NCBI GenBank assembly: GCA_038816475.1
Contig: JAWBAI010000012.1
Location: forward strand, 1 to 29,492
Reading direction: 5' to 3'
Length of the DNA: 29,492 nt
DNA from: Desulfurococcaceae archaeon
GTDB taxonomy: Archaea > Thermoproteota > Thermoprotei_A > Sulfolobales > Desulfurococcaceae
How positions within the stretch are numbered: the first letter of the stretch is position 1; each line of letters starts with the position of its first letter. The notes beneath the pieces were generated by a model. The model made no database searches and was not told the DNA's origin. It worked only from the letters and a program-made list of their open reading frames with translations. A program made the position numbers and the translations under genes. Positions 616 through 29,492 of the stretch are shown here, in pieces.

Positions 616-2145
616 CTAACTATAGTGTTTAGCCATTTCCTCGTTTCCAGGTAGCTTGAGTATGGCGTCTATAACTTCTTCTACTTGTCTTGTGCTCTTG
701 GTTCTAGGGTCTACTATTAACCAGTTGAACAAGTGTTCTCGTCCACCGGACAAGAAGGCTTCTATTGCCCATTCAGCTCTCATAAGCCTATGCATCATTA
801 CGTACTTTAGCACTTTGCTCGGTAAACTCGTGGTAACAACAGGCTCTATACTTCTCCCTGTTAATCTTGCTGGAACCTCCACGGCTACGTTGTCCGGTAC
901 ACCTACGAGCACTCCGTTATTGACTGTGTTGACCTGTATTGGAACAGGTATAGGCTTTGAACCGGGTATTGGTAAGTACAGCTCGTATCGGTCCTTGTCT
1001 ACGTTGTTCGCCAGAGAGTCAATTATTTCAACTAGGGATTCTCCGCTTGGTTTAGGTGGATACCTCGATGTTAATGGAGTTGATAAATCGAAGACGTTTG
1101 ATGCAAGCTCTTTCAGTTTGATCCTCAGGTGTGCAATGTACATGGACCAACCGATCTCGGAGTCGGGTCCTCCGTATGGTCCGTACCAGTACTGCTTGGT
1201 CTTGAGATCCCAGTGGTACTTCCATGTTCCACCTCTTACGGTATCTCCTATTGGTAGTAGTCCGTAGGTTCTGTACATATCTACTGCAGCCGGTGATAGG
1301 TCTATGTCAAAGGGGTTGTAGGTGTGTTCTCTCCAGACCTTCCAGTAGTGTTCAGCGTCCTCCTTGATCCAGTCGTCAAGGTACTTGTAGGCGTCTTCAC
1401 CTTTGTACTTGAACTTCGTTAACCATATGACGTGGTTAAACCCGACCATTTCAACTTCAAGCTCCTCTAAGCTTAGCAAGCTCTGGATAACCAAGTAGCA
1501 TTCGGGGTGCTCTGCAGCACACTCGGAGACTATGTTAACTCCCTTCTCCTTCGCTAGCCTCATTCCGAGAACCAGCACTGCTGATTTCAAGTACCCGAGG
1601 TGTCCGTGGCACAACCCAATGTACTTGACCTTGGATTTTCTGAATGCAAGTGTTGAAAGCTCGAGCACAGGGTTTGCTACGTTTATGAACCAAGCACTTG
1701 GTGATAACTCCTCAATGTCCTCTAGTATATCGGTGAAAAGCTTGAACTGGTAGTAGCCCCATATAGTGTGGTAGTCTGAGACGTAGTTCCACTCTACGCT
1801 GTTTATACCTCTGTAGTAACCGTGCTTCTCCGAAACCTCTCTGAGCAACTCGTAGTACCCGTGACCACGAGCCATAGCGGAGTTTACCACGAAGTCGGCG
1901 TCCTTGATAGCCTCTCTTCTATCAAAGGTTTTGTAGACCCGGGCTCCGGCTCTGAGCTCTTCGATGTACCTTTTTGTGAATCCGTATATAACTTCCAGTC
2001 TCCAGGGGTCTATGTCCATTAACCATATATCAACTCGGTCACGTAGTCTCCTGTTGATCAAGAGGTCTACCACGATGGTACTAGACCATACTGCGCTACC
2101 AGCACCAATAAACGCGATTTTCAACCTCTCCAAAGGCATCACCAC
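616..2145 (-). CDS. Glycoside hydrolase family 4 (NAD+/Mn2+-dependent alpha-glucosidase/alpha-galactosidase type)
   Basis: Motifs KIAFIGAGS (NAD binding), ADFVVNS, NVANP, GLCHG (metal-binding Cys) and GFNHVIW; resembles Thermotoga AglA-type GH4. The real start may be ATG 2139. Confidence 0.9.
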   Translation of the reverse strand: MVMPLERLKIAFIGAGSAVWSSTIVVDLLINRRLRDRVDIWLMDIDPWRLEVIYGFTKRYIEELRAGARVYKTFDRREAIKDADFVVNSAMARGHGYYELLREVSEKHGYYRGINSVEWNYVSDYHTIWGYYQFKLFTDILEDIEELSPSAWFINVANPVLELSTLAFRKSKVKYIGLCHGHLGYLKSAVLVLGMRLAKEKGVNIVSECAAEHPECYLVIQSLLSLEELEVEMVGFNHVIWLTKFKYKGEDAYKYLDDWIKEDAEHYWKVWREHTYNPFDIDLSPAAVDMYRTYGLLPIGDTVRGGTWKYHWDLKTKQYWYGPYGGPDSEIGWSMYIAHLRIKLKELASNVFDLSTPLTSRYPPKPSGESLVEIIDSLANNVDKDRYELYLPIPGSKPIPVPIQVNTVNNGVLVGVPDNVAVEVPARLTGRSIEPVVTTSLPSKVLKYVMMHRLMRAEWAIEAFLSGGREHLFNWLIVDPRTKSTRQVEEVIDAILKLPGNEEMAKHYS

Positions 2146-2258
2146 GTGACTATAGGAACAAAAACATAAATATAGTACCAGAGAGTCCGCTACCCGTGTG
2201 TTTTTAAACCAAGCTCTATATTTCTTGGTATTCTAACATGGAGTAGGTACTGCTGCAT

Positions 2259-3002
2259 ATGACCCTGCTCTGGAAGACAGGAATACCTAAACGAATATAC
2301 GCAAGACTCTACTGTAGCTGGAGGAGAGTTAAACGCGAGGTTGAATTACTGAAAGAGATCTTCTCAAAATTTAACGCGAAGAACCTTGTTGAGTTCGGTT
2401 GTGGTTTAGGGAGACATGGTTATCTATTGTCTAAAATGGGCTTTAACGTGGTGTTAACAGATGCCGTGGACTGGAGGTACGGTGTAGCAAGGAAGCTTCC
2501 ATTCGTTAAGCTGGATGTTCTGGACGATAACTCGACTTTAGAGGGGGTTTTCGACGGAGGATACGCAGTGAATTTCCTTACGATTTTCAAGTATAAAGAC
2601 ATGGTTAAAGCTCTAAAGAACATAGGAAGGATTATTGGTAAAGGTGTTTTCGTAGCAGATTACAACTTCACGCTTTACAAAGAACCACGTGTAGTGTACG
2701 TCAAAGTTGGTGGAGAGACCTATAAAGCTGTACTGGAGAAGGAGAAGAGAACTCCTATAGAGGATGGCGGCATGCTCTACAGCTACAGGGTCAAGGTTCT
2801 CGATAAGCACGGTAATGTTGTTGGAGTCGAGGAAGACTCCTACCCCGTGTATGGTAAAGATGTTGTTTTCAGAGCTATAAAAGAAGCTGGTTTCAGAATA
2901 GCGGATCTCGTATGGGTTACGTGGGATCCCGTGAAGTACGTGTATAAGTTTACCGGTAAAAGAGAATCCGATAGCGCTTTCATTGTAATGGTGAACTACT
3001 AG
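2259..3002 (+). CDS. Class I SAM-dependent methyltransferase
   Basis: Motif I VEFGCGLGRH, then VVLTD and FDGGYAV; 247 aa. Substrate unknown. Confidence 0.8.
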   Translation: MTLLWKTGIPKRIYARLYCSWRRVKREVELLKEIFSKFNAKNLVEFGCGLGRHGYLLSKMGFNVVLTDAVDWRYGVARKLPFVKLDVLDDNSTLEGVFDGGYAVNFLTIFKYKDMVKALKNIGRIIGKGVFVADYNFTLYKEPRVVYVKVGGETYKAVLEKEKRTPIEDGGMLYSYRVKVLDKHGNVVGVEEDSYPVYGKDVVFRAIKEAGFRIADLVWVTWDPVKYVYKFTGKRESDSAFIVMVNY

Positions 3003-3077
3003 CATGTGAAGGACTTTATCCACATCTGCTCTGATGCTAACCTAATACTATTTGTATTAGAGTCTCAGCCACAGCGA

Positions 3078-4454
3078 CTACCAGCCGGTCATGTAGTTCA
3101 GCACGTCATCAGGTACTTTGTTTTCTTCAACATCCCTTATCGAATTTTCTAGAGCTACGAGTGCTTTCTCAACGTCTTCTTCCGGTATGTTCAACGGAGG
3201 TGCTACTCTAATAACGTTTCCATGAGTTCCCACTGTAAGCAGTATTACCCCGTTTTCCCAAGCTCTCCAAACGGCTTTTAATGCTAGTGGTTTACTAGGC
3301 TTCTTCGAGCTTTTGTTCTCAACAACCTCTAAGCCGATCAGCAAGCCGAGTCCTCTTACATCGTCAACGATTCTACTACTGTTTCCAATCTCCACCAACC
3401 TCCTGTAAAGGTGCTCCCCCAGTCTTGAGGCTCTCTCGACAAGTTTTTCCTTCTCTATAATCTCGATCGTCGCTAGTGCTGATGCAACCGAGAGAGCGTG
3501 TCCAGCTAGTGTGAACATGAGTCCAACTGGTGGAACATTATCCAGCACGCTCGACCGTCCGATCACAGCTGAAATAGGCATTCCACCACCGAGAGCTTTA
3601 CCAGCAACCAGGAGATCTGGTTCAACTCCGAAGTGCTCGATAGCCCACCATCTCCCTGTTCTACCCATACCGGTTTTAACCTCGTCTAATACGAGTAGAG
3701 CACCGTACTCGCGTGTAAGCTTATCCAGCTCCTGTACGAAGTACCTTGGTGGAACAATTATTCCACCATCGCCCTGAACAGGTTCGAGGATCACAGCTGC
3801 AATGTTACCCCCTGTGCTCCTGAACGCTTTTTCAACGGTATCGAGAGCTCTATTCGAGAGCTCTACCGGGTTCTCGTACCCGTTTATCCCCCACGGGTTC
3901 CTGTAGGGGTTAGCGTACTCGGCGAACAGAACGTTCTTCGAGAGTTTAAAGGTGCTTCTAACGGTTTCACCGAATATACCGGACGCTGACATAGACAAGT
4001 AGGTTGAACCGTGGAAAGATCCTCTGAAGGCTAAAACGTACTCTCTTCCAGTGTAAGCCATCGAGACTTGTAGTGCGATATCCACAGCGTCGGAGCCGGA
4101 GAACCCGAAAAGCACTTTCTTCTGGAAGCTTCCCGGGGTTATCTCGGTTAGTTTTCTAGCAAGCAAGCACGGCTCCTCCGCGTAGAAGTACACCAGTGGG
4201 TAAGCCATGTACTTACCCAGCTGTTCTACGATTGCTTTTGCAACGTATTCGTGGAGATGACCAATGTTGAACACTGCAGCTCCGGATACGAAGTCTATGT
4301 ACTCATTACCATCAGAATCTACAATTCTACAACCTCTGCTCCTAGCAACTACAAGTGGGTAGTACTTAAGAAAAGCGCATCTGGGAAACAGCTTGTTCGT
4401 CAGCTCTAGAACCTCGATAGCTCTTCTCAGTCTAAGCTTAGCAGAGTATTCCAT
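3078..4454 (-). CDS. PLP-dependent class-III aminotransferase-fold enzyme, probably of the amino-acid racemase subfamily
   Basis: Motifs DSDGNEYIDF, FSGSDAVD, SFHG, EPVQGD, DEVKTGMGRTG, AGKALGGG (PLP Lys) and IRVAPPLNI. Start moved to ATG 4454 (MEYSAK), which has a GTGGTGG RBS-like sequence upstream; the ORF-track extension to 4592 does not look coding. Confidence 0.85.
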   Translation of the reverse strand: MEYSAKLRLRRAIEVLELTNKLFPRCAFLKYYPLVVARSRGCRIVDSDGNEYIDFVSGAAVFNIGHLHEYVAKAIVEQLGKYMAYPLVYFYAEEPCLLARKLTEITPGSFQKKVLFGFSGSDAVDIALQVSMAYTGREYVLAFRGSFHGSTYLSMSASGIFGETVRSTFKLSKNVLFAEYANPYRNPWGINGYENPVELSNRALDTVEKAFRSTGGNIAAVILEPVQGDGGIIVPPRYFVQELDKLTREYGALLVLDEVKTGMGRTGRWWAIEHFGVEPDLLVAGKALGGGMPISAVIGRSSVLDNVPPVGLMFTLAGHALSVASALATIEIIEKEKLVERASRLGEHLYRRLVEIGNSSRIVDDVRGLGLLIGLEVVENKSSKKPSKPLALKAVWRAWENGVILLTVGTHGNVIRVAPPLNIPEEDVEKALVALENSIRDVEENKVPDDVLNYMTGW

Positions 4455-4569
4455 GACCACCACATGTAAGTTTTGTTTGAAAGAGAGTTGATAACTGTTT
4501 TTGCGTGCTAGGTTTTTGTGGGTTTCTCGTGGATGCTTATGGTTCTCGAGGTGATTAAGTTTAGCAATG

Positions 4570-4577
4570 TTTATAAA
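4570..4577 (+). promoter_or_regulatory. TATA box, candidate promoter of the structured RNA
   Basis: TTTATAAA ends about 20 nt before the GC-rich structured segment at 4598, close to archaeal TATA-to-start spacing. It is palindromic, so it could instead act on the minus strand. Confidence 0.45.
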
Positions 4578-4597
4578 CCAGGTGAGTAACAACTGCT

Positions 4598-4700
4598 CCT
4601 GGTGACCCTGGGTTTCCGAGACCCACGGCAGACCGTGGAGAGGGGGCTCAGGGAAACCGTGATGACCCGCCCTAGGAAAACCTAGAGCGGGAAACGGTTT
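4598..4700 (+). ncRNA. Structured non-coding RNA, candidate TnpB omegaRNA scaffold
   Basis: 64 of 103 nt are G/C within AT-rich flanks. Visible stems: CCTG4598/CAGG4649, CCCT4606/AGGG4641, GGGTTT4610/AGACCC4619, CCACGG4623/CCGTGG4633, and the long hairpin AAACCGT-GATGA-CCCGC-C-CTAGG-AAAA-CCTAG-A-GCGGG-AA-ACGGTTT (4654-4700), which has a kink-turn-like internal loop. Confidence 0.55.
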
Positions 4701-4832
4701 ATCTCAAAACATTCGATGTAAAATATGAATATAAAGCATGGTTTGTGGAGAGTGCTTAATCATGAACTTGAATTAAATAAGCTTGGAACTTGAAATAGGT
4801 TGTTACTGGGGACATTGCAAGGTGTGTTCTTA

Positions 4833-5159
4833 TTGTTTAGTTGCATACCCGAGGACTTAATGAGAGCTCTTGAATCTTTTGCTACTAGAGTTAGGGAAGC
4901 TCTGGGAGACGCTGAAGTATACCTTTTTGGTAGCTATGCGCGGTGCGATTGGGTTGAGGATAGTGATGTAGACCTTGTAGTCGTCTCAGATGCGTTCAAA
5001 AACATGGATTTGGGAGAAAGGTATGCTTTAGTTAGAAAAATGCTACCATTGAATATGGGGTTTGAAATACTAACGTACACGCGTGAAGAGTTCGAGGTTG
5101 CTAAGAGGAGAAGCATTGTACTGCGAGACGCTTCCAATTACTGGATAAGAATAGCGTAG
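4833..5159 (+). CDS. Minimal nucleotidyltransferase (MNT) antitoxin
   Basis: VYLFGSYARCDWVEDSDVDLVVV carries the intact GS...DxD motif of pol-beta-like NTases. Start taken as TTG 4833 after GGTGTG; adjacent to a HEPN gene. Confidence 0.85.
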   Translation: MFSCIPEDLMRALESFATRVREALGDAEVYLFGSYARCDWVEDSDVDLVVVSDAFKNMDLGERYALVRKMLPLNMGFEILTYTREEFEVAKRRSIVLRDASNYWIRIA

Positions 5160-5170
5160 AGGGTTTTGAC

Positions 5171-5572
5171 GTGAGGGAGGAAGCGCTGGATTGGCTTGAA
5201 AGCGCACTCGTAGACCTCAACGAAGCAAGGGAAGCGTGTAAGCGTGGTAGCTACCACCTAGCATTGTTCCTAGCGCATCAAGCTGTGGAAAAAACACTTA
5301 AAGCATACATCATAGGCTTCAAGAGGAAGCTACCCCCGAGGTCCCACGACCTAGTAGAACTACTCTCACTGGCGGAGCTACAGCTGAATCCACAGGACTT
5401 CGAGTTGGTCTCGGAGCTTTCCCCCTACTATGTGGTTGCAAGGTACCCGAACGCTGGTCTAAGAAAACCCTGGATCGAGATAAGGCAGGGTACTGCTCAA
5501 AGGCTTCTAGGCGTAGCCGAGAGAGTAGTCAACAGCGTTAAAACATTGTTCGAGCAGGCTAAGACAAGTTAA
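5171..5572 (+). CDS. HEPN domain protein (COG2250-type), partner of the MNT
   Basis: Motifs WLESALVDL, FLAHQAVEKTLKA, RSHDL and YVVARYP; starts 11 nt after the MNT stop. Confidence 0.88.
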   Translation: MREEALDWLESALVDLNEAREACKRGSYHLALFLAHQAVEKTLKAYIIGFKRKLPPRSHDLVELLSLAELQLNPQDFELVSELSPYYVVARYPNAGLRKPWIEIRQGTAQRLLGVAERVVNSVKTLFEQAKTS

Positions 5573-27169: not shown

Positions 27170-27760
27170 TTATACTCTACTTAGACTTATGTATCTGTGA
27201 ATAGCCAGTATATCACTCAGTATTGCTTGCCCCGTCTCTATTCTACCGGCTCCTGGACCAACGATCGTTAATAAGCCAAGGTGGTCTGTTTCCAAGGTTA
27301 AAGCATTCGTAACCCCCATTACGTTAGCTAGTGGGTGAGTTAAGGGGATCTTCCTAGGTCTCACCGAGGCTTTGACGTTGTCCCCGTTCTTCGAGACTTC
27401 GGCTACGAGCTTAATTCTGCATCCTTCTTCTCTAGCCTTCTTTATATCCTCCGTGGTGATTCTGGTGATACCCTCTCTCTCAACGTCCTTTATGGTTATC
27501 GAGGAACCCATGATCACGTTAGCCAGTATAACAGCCTTGATCGCCGCATCCCAGCCCTCAACGTCCAGCGTTGGATCAGCTTCAGCGTACCCGAGCTTCT
27601 GCGCTTCTCTCAGCGCTTCCTCGTAGGTTAACCCCTCCTCCATTCTGGTTAGTATGTAGTTCGTGGTTCCGTTGACTATTCCCTGTATTCTTCGCACATC
27701 TACTCCCGCCAGAGATTCGAGAACTAAGCTGAAGACAGGTGTACCACTGAGTACTACGCC
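27170..27760 (-). pseudogene. hom: Homoserine dehydrogenase, C-terminal half, interrupted by IS607
   Basis: Motifs GVVLSGTP, GIVNGTTNYIL, AQKLGYAEADP.LDVEGWDAAIK and GPGAG..ETG. The N-terminal NAD-binding domain is absent and similarity stops at the IS boundary. Confidence 0.88.
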
Positions 27761-27776
27761 TCGCGCGACTGTTTCG

Positions 27777-27807
27777 GGTTTCATATAGGTTTATAAGGGT
27801 TGATATC
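27777..27807 (+). repeat. Helically phased subterminal direct repeats at the IS607 left end (candidate TnpA binding sites)
   Basis: GGTTTCATAT (27777), GGTTTATAAG (27788) and GGTTGATATC (27798), spaced 11 and 10 bp apart. Confidence 0.55.
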
Positions 27808-27827
27808 ATTTATTATTGGAGGTGTCA

Positions 27828-28430
27828 ATGCTTCGACCAAAGGAGGTTTGTGAGAAGCTCGGTATCAGCTACACTACTCTGAGAGAGTACGTTAAGAGGG
27901 GATGGATTAAACCAGTTGTTCTCGAGAGTGGTAAGTGGAGGTTCAGAGAGGAAGACGTTGAGAAGCTTATGGGTATTGTTAAACCTAGAACCGTTATCCT
28001 CTACGCTCGCGTCTCCTCTCATACACAGAAGGACGACCTCGAGAGACAGGTGAAGGTTCTCGAGGAGTGGGCTAAGCAGAACAACGTAGAGAAGTACGAG
28101 GTCGTCACGGACATTGGGAGTGGTCTCAACGAGGATAGAAGAGGATTCAAGAGAATACTGAGACTTGCAACCGAGAGGAAGATATCCAAGATCGTAGTAG
28201 CGTACCCAGATAGACTCACCAGGTTCGGTTTCAAAACGCTGGTAGAACTCCTTAGAGCATTTGGAGTAGAGGTGGTTGTGTTAAACCACGAGGATAAAGA
28301 CTCAAAGGAAGAGCTCGTGGAGGACTTGATCACCATCGTATCTCACTTCGCTGGAAAACTCTATGGTATGAGGAGTCATAAGTACGAGAAAGTGGTTGAA
28401 GGTGTGAGAAAACTTGTTGAAGACCCGTGA
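27828..28430 (+). CDS. tnpA: IS607 transposase TnpA (MerR-like HTH plus serine recombinase)
   Basis: LRPKEVCEKLGISYTTLREY, YARVSS (catalytic Ser), DIGSG, DRLTRFG and ELVEDLITIVSHFAGKLYG; GGAGGTG RBS before ATG 27828. Confidence 0.95.
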   Translation: MLRPKEVCEKLGISYTTLREYVKRGWIKPVVLESGKWRFREEDVEKLMGIVKPRTVILYARVSSHTQKDDLERQVKVLEEWAKQNNVEKYEVVTDIGSGLNEDRRGFKRILRLATERKISKIVVAYPDRLTRFGFKTLVELLRAFGVEVVVLNHEDKDSKEELVEDLITIVSHFAGKLYGMRSHKYEKVVEGVRKLVEDP

Positions 28431-29492
28431 AGTAGTCAGAATGTATAGTGTTCCAGTAAGAGACTTGAGAGTTAGAGAGCTGATAACGTGGTACACTAGA
28501 ATGCTCCAGAGAGCGGTTGACATTATATGGGAGAACATTGTATGGGAGTACAGGTTTCCAGAGCTATCCATGAGAAGTGGAAGAGTTCGTGTTGAACTAG
28601 GGTACAAGGTTAAGGTTCCAAGAGTACCTGCTGATAGGAAGTTCAAGAAGATGCTTAGAGACTCTTTGCTCGCAGAGTGTCCATACGCTAAGCACTGGGT
28701 TGACGCTGTTATCAGAACAGCGTACTCTGTTATAGAGTCCTGGAGGAAGAGGTACCTGAAAGGGGAAGCCATGAAGGTTAAACCGAGGATTAGGAGGAGG
28801 TTTGCTAGATGCAAGATAACGCTCATGAAGGTTGACTACGGGAGGAAAGCGGTGAGGATAACTCTGAAGCCGGGTGAGTACTTTGAGGTTTCGTGGAGAG
28901 GAACGTGGTTCAGCAGGAGAGTTGAAGGATGGAGGATTGGTGAAGTAATCCTCAAGGACGATAGAGTGCTTATTCCGTTCAAGAAGATCGAGGTCTATAC
29001 TGTTGAGAGGGTTGTTGCATGGGATTCAAACGAGCTATCTCTCGACGGTTACTCCCCAGAAATTGGGTTCATCAAGGTTGATCTAAGGTACCTGCAGAGC
29101 TTGAAGATTGTTTACGAGAAGAAGAAAGCTACTGCTCAATCAATTGGTAAGAAAGAGCTGTTCGAGAAGTACGCTAAAAGAGAGAGAAACAGGGAAAGGG
29201 ACTACATAAACAAGCTCGTTAAGCAGATAACCACCATGTTCCCCAACGCTGTTCACGTAGTTGAAGACCTCAAGAAGGAGGACTTGGTTGCCAAGGGGAG
29301 AACCAGCAAGAATAGGAGGAAGAGAAACGCTAGAACGCCATGGGAAACAATACACAGAAAGCTCTCAGAGAAAGCACTAGTGGTTAAGGTTTCTCCACAC
29401 AACACCTCTCGAACCTGCCCACGATGCGGGTACGTGGTAAAGACCCGAGTGGGCAGGATGTTCAAATGCCCAAAGTGCAGTCTCGAAATGGA
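28414..29492 (+). CDS. tnpB: TnpB RNA-guided endonuclease family protein (3' partial)
   Basis: My translation is open from TTG 28414/28417 to the window end: KTREVVRMYSVPV...VVAWDSN (RuvC-I)...VHVVEDL (RuvC-II)...HNTSRTCPRCG...FKCPKC (Zn finger). It is not in the ORF track because there is no stop codon in the window. Confidence 0.92.
   Translation, partial: MLKTREVVRMYSVPVRDLRVRELITWYTRMLQRAVDIIWENIVWEYRFPELSMRSGRVRVELGYKVKVPRVPADRKFKKMLRDSLLAECPYAKHWVDAVIRTAYSVIESWRKRYLKGEAMKVKPRIRRRFARCKITLMKVDYGRKAVRITLKPGEYFEVSWRGTWFSRRVEGWRIGEVILKDDRVLIPFKKIEVYTVERVVAWDSNELSLDGYSPEIGFIKVDLRYLQSLKIVYEKKKATAQSIGKKELFEKYAKRERNRERDYINKLVKQITTMFPNAVHVVEDLKKEDLVAKGRTSKNRRKRNARTPWETIHRKLSEKALVVKVSPHNTSRTCPRCGYVVKTRVGRMFKCPKCSLEM

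What the first reader, a model, noticed from the sequence alone, without database searches (positions are those of the whole stretch)
4570..4770. Stand-alone structured RNA with its own TATA box: candidate orphan TnpB omegaRNA (trans-acting guide)
Seen: a 103-nt, 62% GC island (4598-4700) in an AT-rich spacer. It folds into a multi-branch domain plus a long hairpin with a kink-turn-like GATGA/AA internal loop, and begins about 20 nt after TTTATAAA. No protein gene covers it on this strand. Established: TnpB omegaRNAs overlap the 3' end of tnpB and take their guide from DNA just outside the element's right end. Inference, from memory and unverified: the segment translates to LLLVTLG...THGRP...GAQGNRDDPP...SGKR across frameshifts, which resembles low-conservation C-terminal tails of crenarchaeal TnpBs. 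With tnpB gone and the scaffold directly behind a promoter, it could be a guide RNA loaded in trans by a TnpB encoded elsewhere. The guide would be the ~16-20 nt after the right end (candidate ends: TCAA 4704-4707, GG 4740-4741, GG 4747-4748), which lie upstream of the MNT-HEPN pair.
Basis: partly seen in the sequence, partly recalled or inferred. Interest (0 to 1): 0.8.

Follow-up and report, generated by a model that had tools for sequence, protein, structure and literature searches.

The report
Guide-RNA-only miniature transposon, archaeal TnpB-like family
The GC-rich island is the guide-RNA gene of a 210-bp miniature transposon that has lost its TnpB-like protein gene, and related elements show that this RNA is normally a separate gene with its own promoter, read away from its protein gene.

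Summary
Window 4598-4700 is 62% GC, folds far better than shuffles, and begins 20 nt after TTTATAAA.

It is not a lone gene. It lies in a 210-bp miniature transposon (4486-4695) with 4 copies in this genome. Contigs from 4 of 4 hot-spring DNA runs carry the same locus without the element. The joint shows insertion at a GG dinucleotide, the mark of IS607-type serine-recombinase transposons.

The RNA (4599-4698) is homologous to the 3' end of canonical IS607-type tnpB genes. Its native partner is a different protein: a ~375-aa, zinc-finger-less TnpB/Cas12f-like protein ("X", Pfam SSO2105_N). X is encoded on the opposite strand, across a TATA box, in 27 of 30 X loci examined. Across those loci 28 of 34 base pairs show compensatory changes.

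The RNA ends at the transposon boundary, so its 3' tail would come from the flank (from 4698/4699). That is the layout of an omegaRNA guide.

The window copy is a deletion derivative that keeps the left end, promoter, RNA and right end. No X gene was found in this 92%-complete genome.

The origin, the partner protein and the proposed ends are wrong. Expression and use in trans are unshown.

The parts
4482..4485 (.). Left flank of the insertion site (AGAG). In the empty allele it abuts GG-T, giving ..AGAG|GGT.. This is the candidate TAM-like motif (R-A/G-G + GG).
   Evidence: Joint 4485->4696 in contigs of 4 of 4 DNA runs. In the 13 copies where my pattern found the left end, flank -1 is G in 11 and -2 is A in 8.
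4486..4695 (+). The miniature transposon (MITE), 210 bp. Given the GG core, 4488-4697 is equivalent.
   Evidence: The empty-site joint skips exactly 4486-4695. Own genome has 4 copies at 88-98% identity, on C12, C5, C1 and C3, with unrelated flanks. Copies occur in other genomes.
4486..4487 (+). Left-end core dinucleotide. It is AG here and GG in 12 of the 13 copies in which the left end was found.
4488..4562 (+). Left end. It is homologous to the left ends of the full-length X-type element (L132:189-256) and of the IS607-type element on contig C7. It holds an inverted copy of the right end's subterminal motif (4507-4521).
   Evidence: BLASTN: query positions 23-90 of window 4471-4710 match L132 189-256 at 79%, E = 9e-12. 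C7 left end.
4511..4558 (-). Relic of the last 16 codons of the lost X gene.
   Evidence: tblastn of X residues 361-376 against the window - strand: 62.5% identity, E = 0.001 in a 400-nt search space.
4570..4577 (.). Palindromic TATA box TTTATAAA, the predicted promoter of the RNA. In full-length elements the same box also lies about 25 nt from the X start codon on the other strand.
   Evidence: A TATA-like octamer starts 25-31 nt before model position 1 in 24 of 36 copies (3 more have TTTATAGA) and in 21 of 26 X-linked loci. Transcription itself is not shown.
4599..4698 (+). omegaRNA-like scaffold, the RNA family modelled by R1.
   Evidence: R1 scores 116.6 bits, E = 1.7e-33. Covariation. No Rfam family matches.
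4606..4653 (+). Hairpin 1. Outer stem 4606-4617 with 4642-4653; inner stem 4622-4628 with 4633-4639. C4622/A4639 is a mismatch in this copy. Four G.U/U.G pairs form only on the + strand.
   Evidence: In the X-linked set all 19 pairs show compensatory changes. 4639 A>G in most related contigs.
4656..4698 (+). Hairpin 2 with a kink-turn-like motif. C-helix 4656-4660 with 4694-4698; bulge GAU 4661-4663; G4664.A4693; A4665.A4692; upper stem 4666-4676 with 4681-4691.
   Evidence: In the 27 X-linked loci GAUGA is kept in 24/23/24/27/26. The 3' strand is G-A (canonical) in 17 of 27 and A-A in 10 of 27, as in the window.
4696..4697 (+). Right-end GG core dinucleotide, the recombination site.
   Evidence: GG in 26 of 32 copies.
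4698..4717 (+). Predicted guide, taken from flanking DNA. T4698 still pairs in the C-helix.
   Evidence: All copies diverge after ..AACGGT. The base after GG is T in 32 of 32. Own genome holds no second match with up to 4 mismatches, and viral contigs hold no exact 20-mer. Guide use is inferred.

Best explanation
Window 4486-4695 is a non-autonomous miniature transposon with IS607-type ends. It consists of four parts:
- a left end that keeps the last 16 codons of a deleted gene;
- a TATA box;
- a ~100-nt structured RNA gene (4599-4698);
- the right end.

Its parent is a ~1.3-kb element. In that parent the same RNA gene and a ~375-aa zinc-finger-less TnpB/Cas12f-like protein gene (X, Pfam SSO2105_N) point away from each other across one palindromic TATA box.

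The RNA is the family's omegaRNA-type guide. Its scaffold ends at the transposon's GG boundary, so transcription runs into the flank and supplies a locus-specific 3' guide, here from 4698/4699.

Inferred mechanism, by analogy with IS605 and IS607 TnpB: an IS607-type serine recombinase supplied in trans moves the element at GG sites. This genome encodes two such recombinases. The RNA-protein complex then recognises the empty allele, that is, the left-flank motif + GG followed by the guide match. It cuts or binds it, which favours retention or homing of the element.

In this genome the RNA gene is an orphan, because no X gene was found. The copy is therefore most likely a hitch-hiking or latent guide rather than a working one.

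Shown: repeat structure, boundaries, the empty allele, homology, the conserved RNA-X pairing, covariation, strand.
Inferred: transcription, guide use, the activity of X, any use in trans.
For: 1. Repeat: 4 copies in G000 with sharp shared ends and unrelated flanks. The core is found in 36 of 325 genomes of the order.

2. Mobility and ends: the joint 4485->4696 appears in contigs of 4 of 4 DNA runs, and flank contigs stop at exactly these places. The core is GG. Passages of bioRxiv 10.1101/2023.11.20.567912 report a strict GG requirement and a TGGG target/TAM for an IS607 serine recombinase.

3. The ends match the genome's own IS607-type element at C7:71013-72975. Its genes hit Pfam Resolvase + HTH, and Cas12f1-like TNB + RuvC.

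4. RNA homology: R1 hits canonical tnpB 3' ends, and tblastn supports it.

5. Partner protein:
- Full elements L132 and L107, with different flanks, carry X on the opposite strand between the left end and the TATA box.
- R1 finds the RNA, divergent, beside X in 27 of 30 X loci. The 3 misses are contig-edge or fragment cases.
- The X model has pLDDT 88. Its best Foldseek hits are Cas12f, Cas12k and Cas12m, E down to 6e-11, TM about 0.5.
- D216 is nearly invariant; E280 and H355 are invariant; there are no zinc-finger cysteines.

6. Structure:
- In 36 mostly-MITE copies, 89.3% of cells pair, and 14 pairs change on both sides against 6.3 in shuffles (0 of 500) and 6-9 when slid.
- In 27 X-linked copies, 92.1% pair, and 28 of 34 pairs change on both sides against 18.3 in shuffles and 6-11 when slid.

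7. Strand: conserved G.U pairs form only on the + strand. The TATA box sits at a fixed 25-31 nt.

8. No conserved structure at the 3' end of X, where a canonical omegaRNA would lie.

9. Orphan status: X was not found in G000 with the protein, with tblastn or with a profile.
Against: - No RNA data. Transcription, the 5' end and the guide length are all predicted.
- No experiment exists on X or any close relative that I could find. RNA-guided activity is inferred from fold and motifs, and the RuvC-III Asp is His.
- The A3 alignment was fitted to the model, which inflates pairing. The MAFFT-based A1 count is weaker because its copies are close relatives.
- The lower stem 4656-4660/4694-4698 shows no compensatory change in A1 and only 2 pairs with one in A3.
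- The empty-site joint rests on 26-28 nt on its short side at 85% likeness, a range the tool warns about.
- Some copies are decaying (L036, L035, C13:16021-16125; own copies C1 and C3 carry stem-breaking changes). The window copy has one stem mismatch and a non-GG left core. That suggests relaxed constraint on MITE copies.
- G000 is 92% complete, so absence of X is not proven.
- R1 found nothing near six distant (30-35% identity) X homologues.
Confidence: 0.7

Rival explanations
1. One reading: the orphan RNA is loaded in trans by a canonical TnpB encoded elsewhere in this genome. Candidates are the IS607-type TnpB on C7 and the one at window 28693-29484. It would act as a working guide against the sequence after the right end.
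For: The genome has canonical TnpBs. The C7 tnpB 3' end shares the terminal hairpin almost exactly and the overall layout with the window RNA (R1 gives 40.9 bits over model 1-110). The discussion of PMC10055086 states that PATE elements often encode omegaRNAs that would need TnpB in trans. Empty alleles exist in nature to be targeted.
Against: The family's conserved partner is X, not a canonical TnpB. Outside the last hairpin the C7 scaffold differs and lacks the kink-turn motif. No binding or expression data exist. The C7 element has its own two MITE derivatives carrying its own scaffold.
Confidence: 0.12
2. Inert relic. The RNA module survives in the MITE only because it overlaps sequences the recombinase needs at the right end. 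It does nothing here, whether or not it is transcribed.
For: No X in the assembly. By my comparison of the genome lists, 14 of the 36 genomes with the RNA core lack a detectable X. Copies are decaying and own copies carry stem-breaking changes. In the recombinase study read in passages, the ends and short inverted motifs were what excision needed.
Against: The TATA box and its spacing are kept in most MITE copies, although the recombinase needs only the termini. Hairpin 1 lies over 45 nt inside the end and is still kept with compensatory changes among MITE-rich copies. This rival overlaps the main reading, which also takes this copy to be orphaned.
Confidence: 0.4
3. The element matters mainly as a portable outward promoter. 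Transcription from the TATA box runs through the right end into the downstream nucleotidyltransferase-HEPN pair (4861-5572), changing its expression.
For: The promoter points out of the element, and I saw no run of five or more T before the next gene. In L107 a GNAT-like gene starts about 30 nt after the right end.
Against: Flanking genes differ between copies and have no common orientation. The conserved, covarying RNA structure is not explained by a promoter role.
Confidence: 0.1
4. A host small RNA of another class that binds L7Ae (C/D-box or H/ACA guide), or a DNA-level hairpin signal for a transposase.
For: GUGAUGA at 4659-4665 fits a C-box, and the loop is kink-turn-like. The fold is almost as good on the - strand.
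Against: No Rfam match reaches threshold. The best are chance-level, E 0.6-7.6. I saw no CUGA D-box within about 40 nt downstream and no ACA-plus-pocket layout. The RNA is mobile, multi-copy and tied to X. The G.U pairs argue for RNA on one strand, not duplex or single-stranded DNA. The ends match a serine-recombinase element, which in the study read acts on double-stranded ends with short inverted motifs.
Confidence: 0.03

Closest known systems
TnpB omegaRNA (reRNA) of IS200/IS605 and IS607 elements
   Same: The scaffold sits at the transposon's right end and stops at the boundary, so the guide is flank-derived at the 3' side. It is sequence- and structure-homologous to the 3' ends of canonical IS607-type tnpB genes. 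The partner has a TnpB/Cas12f-like fold.
   Different: Canonical omegaRNAs overlap the 3' end of tnpB on the same strand, and at least one TnpB processes its guide from its own mRNA (PMC10278001, abstract seen). Here the RNA is a separate gene with its own TATA box, divergent from the protein gene. It carries a kink-turn-like motif. It matches no Rfam family.
PATEs: protein-less IS200/IS605 derivatives that carry omegaRNAs (Meers et al., preprint PMC10055086, passages read)
   Same: A miniature, gene-less derivative that keeps both ends and the guide-RNA module and would need its nuclease in trans. That idea is already in print there.
   Different: Those elements are moved by a Y1 transposase acting on single-stranded hairpin ends. 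This one has IS607-type ends, a GG core and a serine-recombinase relative, is archaeal, and its RNA has its own promoter.
IS607-family transposition with a GG core and TGGG target/TAM (Zedaveinyte et al., bioRxiv 10.1101/2023.11.20.567912, passages read)
   Same: Insertion at GG. The flank motif ends in G-GG (here AG|GG). The guide-matching sequence follows the right end. The ends carry short inverted motifs.
   Different: That system is a bacterial IStron with a canonical TnpB and a same-strand omegaRNA. The motif here is A/G-G-GG followed by an invariant T, and it is untested.
TnpB clade RIIIr-4 of Altae-Tran et al. 2023 (PMC10691335, passages read)
   Same: The paper describes the clade as lacking the C4 zinc finger and having the RuvC-III Asp changed to His. 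X has both features.
   Different: Placement of X in that clade was not tested by a tree. That paper aligned regions downstream of tnpB to find scaffolds.
TldR / nuclease-dead TnpB-derived RNA-guided regulators (PMC10705468, abstract seen)
   Same: A TnpB relative with an altered RuvC-III region and a separately encoded guide RNA.
   Different: By that abstract they are domesticated TnpB homologues acting as RNA-guided transcription factors. X is multi-copy inside transposon ends (111 of 325 genomes) and keeps a conserved D-E-H/D set.

Membership tests
MITE (non-autonomous internal-deletion derivative of an insertion sequence) | Short, no ORF, several copies with shared ends and unrelated flanks | tested here: met
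   210 bp. 4 copies in G000. No + strand ORF of 30 aa or more.
MITE (non-autonomous internal-deletion derivative of an insertion sequence) | Ends shared with a longer, gene-bearing element | tested here: met
   Left and right ends match the X-type element L132 and, more loosely, the C7 IS607-type element. A relic of the X C-terminus sits in the left end.
MITE (non-autonomous internal-deletion derivative of an insertion sequence) | Presence/absence polymorphism at the insertion site | tested here: met
   Joint 4485->4696 in contigs of 4 of 4 runs. The short side is only 26-28 nt.
IS607-family element | Recombination at a GG core dinucleotide present at both ends | tested here: met
   The empty site reads ..GAG|GGT... 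The right-end core is GG in 26 of 32 copies. The left-end core is GG in 12 of the 13 found; the window copy has AG.
IS607-family element | Mobilised by a serine recombinase TnpA | not testable with these tools
   Candidates exist: C7:71085-71714 (Pfam Resolvase 6e-26 + HTH_17) and window 27840-28427 (44.6% identity). None lies in the MITE or in the X-type elements seen.
TnpB omegaRNA | Scaffold ends at the transposon boundary and the guide comes from flanking DNA | tested here: met
   Similarity stops after ..AACGG(T) in all 36 + 26 copies. The boundary was fixed by the empty site.
TnpB omegaRNA | Overlaps or follows the 3' end of tnpB on the same strand | tested here: not met
   The window has no tnpB upstream. 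In 27 of 30 parent-type loci the protein gene is on the opposite strand. Only a coding relic of a canonical tnpB tail remains.
TnpB omegaRNA | Homology to RNA-coding 3' regions of tnpB genes | tested here: met
   R1 hits 10 of 33 TnpB-bearing loci at E < 0.001, each at a tnpB 3' end or its fragment.
TnpB omegaRNA | Binds the nuclease and directs DNA targeting next to a TAM | not testable with these tools
   No RNA or protein data. No RNA run is listed.
PATE (IS200/IS605-derived) | Subterminal hairpin ends used by a Y1 transposase; insertion 3' of a 4-5-nt TAM | tested here: not met
   GG-core joint. The ends match a serine-recombinase element.
Kink-turn (L7Ae-binding motif) | C-helix, 3-nt bulge, tandem sheared G.A and A.G, then NC-helix | tested here: inconclusive
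   The window copy has the C-helix, a GAU bulge and G.A, then A.A instead of A.G. 17 of 27 X-linked relatives have the canonical G.A/A.G. L7Ae binding is untestable here.
C/D-box sRNA | C box RUGAUGA paired with D box CUGA, and a guide complementary to rRNA or tRNA | tested here: not met
   A C-box-like GUGAUGA is present, but I saw no CUGA within about 40 nt downstream. The best Rfam C/D hit is 9.9 bits against a 38-bit threshold.
H/ACA sRNA | Hairpin with a pseudouridylation pocket and a 3' ACA | tested here: not met
   The internal loops are too small for a pocket and I saw no ACA 3' of a stem. The best Rfam hit is 12.9 bits against a 35-bit threshold, on the - strand.
TnpB clade RIIIr-4 (for protein X) | No C4 zinc finger; RuvC-III Asp replaced by His | tested here: met
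   No Cys pairs after VDPxGT. H355 is invariant and D353 nearly invariant in 33 sequences. The clade description comes from PMC10691335.
TnpB clade RIIIr-4 (for protein X) | Placement inside that clade on the TnpB/Cas12 tree | not tested
   No reference sequences of the clade were at hand, and the supplements were closed.

The most novel reading that the evidence does not exclude
X and this RNA form a 'split' OMEGA system in hyperthermophilic archaea. The guide RNA is a separate gene fired from the same palindromic TATA box as its leaderless nuclease mRNA, and it is stiffened by a kink-turn that recruits the host protein L7Ae. Guide-only MITEs such as the window copy would then be parasites of that system. 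They carry nothing but a promoter and a guide scaffold, borrow X and a serine recombinase in trans, and use them to home into empty alleles, which do co-exist with filled ones in natural hot-spring populations.
Probability: 0.3. Interest if true: 0.8.

Novelty: new variant of a known kind. Interest (0 to 1): 0.6.

Why it matters
Guide-carrying, protein-less transposon derivatives have been noted for bacterial IS605 elements, so an orphan omegaRNA is not new in itself. Three things are new here.

1. Gene layout. A large archaeal family of TnpB-like proteins appears to keep its guide RNA as a separate, divergently transcribed gene with its own promoter. The family lacks the zinc finger and has His at RuvC-III. 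It was found in 111 of 325 genomes of this order and in 671 database proteins. Canonical TnpBs have the guide inside the 3' end of the mRNA. This bears on how TnpB guides came to be separate transcription units, as Cas12 guides are.

2. A candidate host-factor site. The scaffold holds a conserved kink-turn-type motif, which could be an L7Ae binding site.

3. A natural test case. Filled and empty alleles of the same locus co-exist in several hot-spring samples. RNA-guided retention or homing could therefore be measured in the wild.

A ~375-aa thermophilic effector with a ~100-nt stand-alone guide is also of practical interest for genome editing.

Tried and rejected
- **Rfam.** The whole window at gathering thresholds gave 0 matches. 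4450-4870 at E up to 10 gave only chance-level hits. Five related loci gave only a tRNA.
- **tRNA.** ARAGORN found none in the window, so a tRNA or split tRNA was dropped.
- **Same-strand parent.** I looked for a full-length parent with tnpB upstream on the same strand. None appeared among the first related loci checked, 30 TnpB loci of the order, 12 genome-contig loci or 9 metagenome loci. My ORF check covered only the same strand. It therefore missed the opposite-strand gene until. At that stage I wrongly took all copies to be stand-alone.
- **Nested insertion.** I first read L107 as a MITE with a nested insertion. It is a full X-type element whose X gene is broken by an IS200/IS605.
- **Empty site by genome search.** A search of 17 genomes of the genus found only homologues of about 65-71% identity, too far to compare. 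The empty allele came instead.
- **Expression.** No RNA holder is listed among the 22 runs found for window 4300-5100. This says nothing either way.
- **Guide off-targets.** The four own-genome guides have no second site with 3 or fewer mismatches; only a few 4-mismatch sites turned up for the C5 and C3 guides. The 20-mer after the right end has no exact match in viral contigs, and the RNA core has none there either.
- **Canonical RNA position.** There is no conserved structure at the 3' end of X. I gave 15 of 24 loci and left out L135, L136, L137, L145, L147, L148, L151, L157 and L158. All but L157 and L158 had in-frame stops; those two I left out without checking.
- **Distant X homologues.** Six loci of 30-35% identity to X gave no R1 hit better than E = 0.9 with filters off.
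- **Left-end flank count.** My pattern found the left end in only 13 of 32 copies. The other 19 were not examined further, so the flank motif rests on those 13.
- **Naming X.** Local Pfam gives only a weak TNB hit (E = 0.057) and NCBIfam guided_TnpB gives E = 0.006. The Atlas names PF27229 as SSO2105_N. No paper in the library holds 'SSO2105'. A link to Sulfolobus ISC1316 is only my recollection, and searches did not settle it.
- **Literature.** These searches found no description of a divergent, separately promoted guide RNA for TnpB-like proteins. They cover only the held library. Supplements were closed, and the SI of PMC10691335 may list scaffold positions by clade.
Full report
**1. Observation**

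Window 4598-4700 is a 103-nt island of 62.1% GC. The surrounding spacer is 36.4% GC. TTTATAAA lies at 4570-4577.

The + strand of 4590-4710 folds at -55.4 kcal/mol, z = -4.15 against 200 shuffles. The - strand folds almost as well (z = -3.92).

Rfam and ARAGORN find nothing. The description is accurate.

**2. It is a repeat with sharp ends**

The stretch from about 4485 to 4699 occurs four times in the window's genome: on C12, C5, C1 and C3, at 88-98% identity, with unrelated flanks. A fifth, decayed copy lies at C13:16021-16125. Every copy ends at ..GGGAAAYGGT.

The core is found in 36 of 325 genomes of the order (only two candidates per genome were scored, so these are not copy numbers). Named relatives are hot-spring MAGs titled Ignisphaera sp., Desulfurococcaceae archaeon and Sulfolobales archaeon.

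**3. The empty allele and the kind of transposon**

I laid contigs of four hot-spring DNA runs on 4000-5300. In all four, a joint runs from 4485 to 4696 and skips 210 bp.
- Flank contigs stop at exactly these positions.
- Flank depths match: 216.5 and 230.6 in X2, 58.1 and 70.7 in X10.
- Contigs with the element are also present in the same runs.

The caveat is that the short side of the joint is only 26-28 nt and I ran at 85% likeness, a range the tool warns about. Against that, the joint coincides to the base with the boundaries inferred independently from the repeat alignments.

The empty site reads ..AAAGAG|GGTTTATC... The element therefore sits at a GG dinucleotide, and a second GG (4696-4697) lies at its right end.

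This genome also holds a complete IS607-type element at C7:71013-72975. It encodes:
- a serine recombinase (Pfam Resolvase 6e-26 plus an HTH);
- a 439-aa TnpB (Cas12f1-like TNB 3e-17, weak RuvC).

Its left end resembles the window element's left end. Its last hairpin matches the window's almost exactly, in the longer form also seen in the C5 copy. It has two miniature derivatives of its own: C7:~42250-42478 and C11:~4770-4985.

Passages of bioRxiv 10.1101/2023.11.20.567912 report that an IS607 serine recombinase strictly needs a GG core and prefers TGGG, which is also its TnpB's TAM. In the 13 copies where my pattern found the left end, the flank before the core is G in 11 and the base before that is A in 8. 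The base after the right-end GG is T in 32 of 32.

**4. The RNA is related to canonical tnpB 3' ends**

- tblastn of the C7 TnpB tail (residues 394-437) hits sister copies at E = 6e-6 to 9e-5. It hits the window copy at E = 0.03 in a 400-nt search space.
- Covariance model R1, built from 36 copies, matches the 3' ends of 10 of 33 TnpB-bearing loci at E < 0.001. The C7 gene scores 40.9 bits over the whole model.

**5. The turn: the native partner is on the other strand**

I found no copy with a tnpB upstream on the same strand.

Metagenome contig L132 carries the same left end (181-256) and the same TATA box, RNA and right end (1354-1491). Between them, on the minus strand, lies a 376-aa ORF, called X here. 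L107 has the same element at a different site, with X broken by an IS200/IS605.

What X is:
- It hits TnpB models only weakly.
- Its AlphaFold model has mean pLDDT 88.2. Its best matches are Cas12f, Cas12k and Cas12m, with E down to 6e-11 and TM about 0.5.
- In 33 homologues G214 and N218 of the GxDVN motif are invariant and D216 nearly so. ALENP (E280) and H355 are invariant, and D353 is nearly invariant. There are no zinc-finger cysteines.
- Passages of PMC10691335 describe clade RIIIr-4 in the same terms: it lacks the C4 zinc finger and has the RuvC-III Asp mutated to His. I did not place X on a tree.

How common X is: 111 of 325 genomes of the order and 671 database proteins at E <= 1e-5, carrying precomputed Pfam PF27229, which the Atlas names SSO2105_N.

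**6. The RNA-X pair is conserved**

- R1 finds the RNA next to X, divergent, in 27 of 30 X loci. X identity in these loci goes down to about 43%. The three misses are contig-edge or fragment cases (L138, L144, L153).
- The intergenic layout is constant: X start codon, a covarying DNA palindrome, about 8 nt, the TATA box, 22-24 nt, then UGGUGACC.
- The palindromic TATA box lies about 25 nt from both the RNA start and the X ATG. This suggests one bidirectional promoter and a leaderless X mRNA. That is an inference.
- A TATA-like octamer starts 25-31 nt before the RNA in 21 of 26 X-linked loci and in 24 of 36 copies of the first set, with 3 more reading TTTATAGA.
- No conserved structure exists at the 3' end of X, the canonical omegaRNA position (15 of 24 loci given).

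**7. Structure and strand**

| Set | Cells paired | Pairs changed on both sides | Shuffled | Slid controls |
|---|---|---|---|---|
| 36-copy MAFFT alignment | 89.3% | 14 | 6.3 (0 of 500 reach it) | 6-9 |
| 27 X-linked copies, fitted to the model, which favours it | 92.1% | 28 of 34 | 18.3 | 6-11 |

The covariation score in the second set is 0.507 against at most 0.129 for the slid controls.

Several conserved G.U pairs in hairpin 1 would be A.C on the other strand. The RNA therefore reads on the + strand.

The internal loop is a kink-turn pattern. Its parts are the C-helix 4656-4660/4694-4698, the bulge GAU and G.A. The next pair is A.G in 17 of 27 relatives and A.A in 10, as in the window copy.

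The C-helix includes the GG core and the first flank base. This fits the invariant T at that position.

**8. What the window copy is**

Of the 32 non-own copies in the first alignment:
- 4 lie beside a whole or interrupted X;
- 2 lie beside X remnants;
- 26 have none.

The window copy keeps a relic of the last 16 X codons in its left end. It is therefore an internal-deletion derivative: left end, TATA box, RNA and right end.

X was not found in this genome with the protein, with tblastn or with a 33-sequence profile. The assembly is 92% complete. By my comparison of the genome lists, 14 of the 36 genomes that hold the RNA core have no detectable X.

The predicted guide (4698-4717) has no other match in this genome with up to 4 mismatches, and no exact match in viral contigs. 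The three other copies' guides have no second site with 3 or fewer mismatches. This fits a self-locus (homing or retention) guide rather than a defence or regulatory guide.

**9. Mechanism, with what is shown and what is not**

Shown: the element, its ends, the GG insertion, the empty allele, the conserved RNA-X pairing, the covarying structure, the strand, and the conserved promoter position.

Inferred, by analogy with the IS605 and IS607 work read:
- A serine recombinase supplied in trans moves the element. Two are encoded in this genome, one at window 27840-28427.
- The RNA is transcribed from its own promoter into the flank.
- X with this RNA recognises the empty allele, that is, the flank motif + GG followed by the guide match, and cuts or binds it. 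The element is then restored or spreads.

In this genome the RNA most likely has no partner. Use by the canonical C7 TnpB is possible but unsupported.

**10. Comparison and novelty**

Protein-less derivatives that carry omegaRNAs and need TnpB in trans are already mentioned for bacterial IS605 elements (PMC10055086, discussion passage). The orphan-guide idea is therefore known.

I could not find the following in the held library (searches; supplements closed):
- a guide RNA that is a separate, divergently transcribed gene with its own promoter for a TnpB-like family;
- a kink-turn-type motif in such a scaffold;
- IS607-end MITEs that carry only that gene.

I rate this a new variant of a known kind, with interest 0.6.

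Noticed in passing
window 27760-29492 (continues on contig C9:1-~330): A second IS607-type element. It encodes a serine recombinase (27840-28427, 44.6% identical to the C7 one) followed by a TnpB (28693-29484) that runs off the contig end. The C9 start overlaps it. Its left end has a similar layout (..GACTGTTT..TAGGTTTATAAGG..).
   Followed up: partly
window 4455-4486 and 4698-4703: The MITE sits 30 nt upstream of the ATG (4455, - strand) of the class-III aminotransferase gene. In the empty allele a TTTATC (GATAAA on the gene's strand) lies about 33-38 nt from that ATG. The insertion moved it 210 bp away, so the insertion may have changed that gene's promoter.
   Followed up: no
window 4861-5572: A nucleotidyltransferase (MNT-like, within ORF 4800..5159) and a HEPN-like ORF (5171-5572) lie downstream, in the direction the MITE's promoter points. 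A similar HEPN/MNT-like pair also lies beside the C7 IS607-type element (L029 2357-3027, - strand). These family names are my reading of the translations; no family search was run on them.
   Followed up: no
L133-L162, between the X start codon and the TATA box (e.g. L132:1335-1346): A DNA palindrome whose sequence changes between subfamilies but which stays a palindrome (GGGATATACCC, GGGGAATCCCC, AGGCTATAGCCT, GGATATATATCC). It lies upstream of both transcription units, so it looks like an operator for a dimeric DNA-binding protein. It is lost in the window MITE.
   Followed up: partly
own genome C7:~42250-42478 (+) and C11:~4770-4985 (-): Two miniature derivatives of the canonical C7 IS607-type element. 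Each is its left end, including a TTTATATA box, fused to the last ~140 bp of tnpB. Guide-only MITEs have thus arisen at least twice, from two different parents sharing the same ends.
   Followed up: partly
L134 (G181:C5) 1145-3041: An X-type element is inserted inside a serine-recombinase gene, whose two halves flank it.
   Followed up: no
L107 1646-4600: An IS200/IS605 element (Y1-type TnpA of 142 aa plus a 475-aa TnpB) is nested inside the X gene of an X-type element.
   Followed up: partly
own C3:~96870-97084 vs L034 (G015), and own C1:~150040-150254 vs L036 (G009): Two of the four own copies lie at the same loci in other species of the genus, so those insertions are old. The G015 copy has lost the promoter region and the G009 copy has a rearranged hairpin 1.
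   Followed up: partly
own genome C13:16021-16125 (-): A decayed copy of the RNA module (R1 23 bits, E = 7e-4). It lies between a 785-aa ORF and what looks like the start of a tRNA gene.
   Followed up: partly
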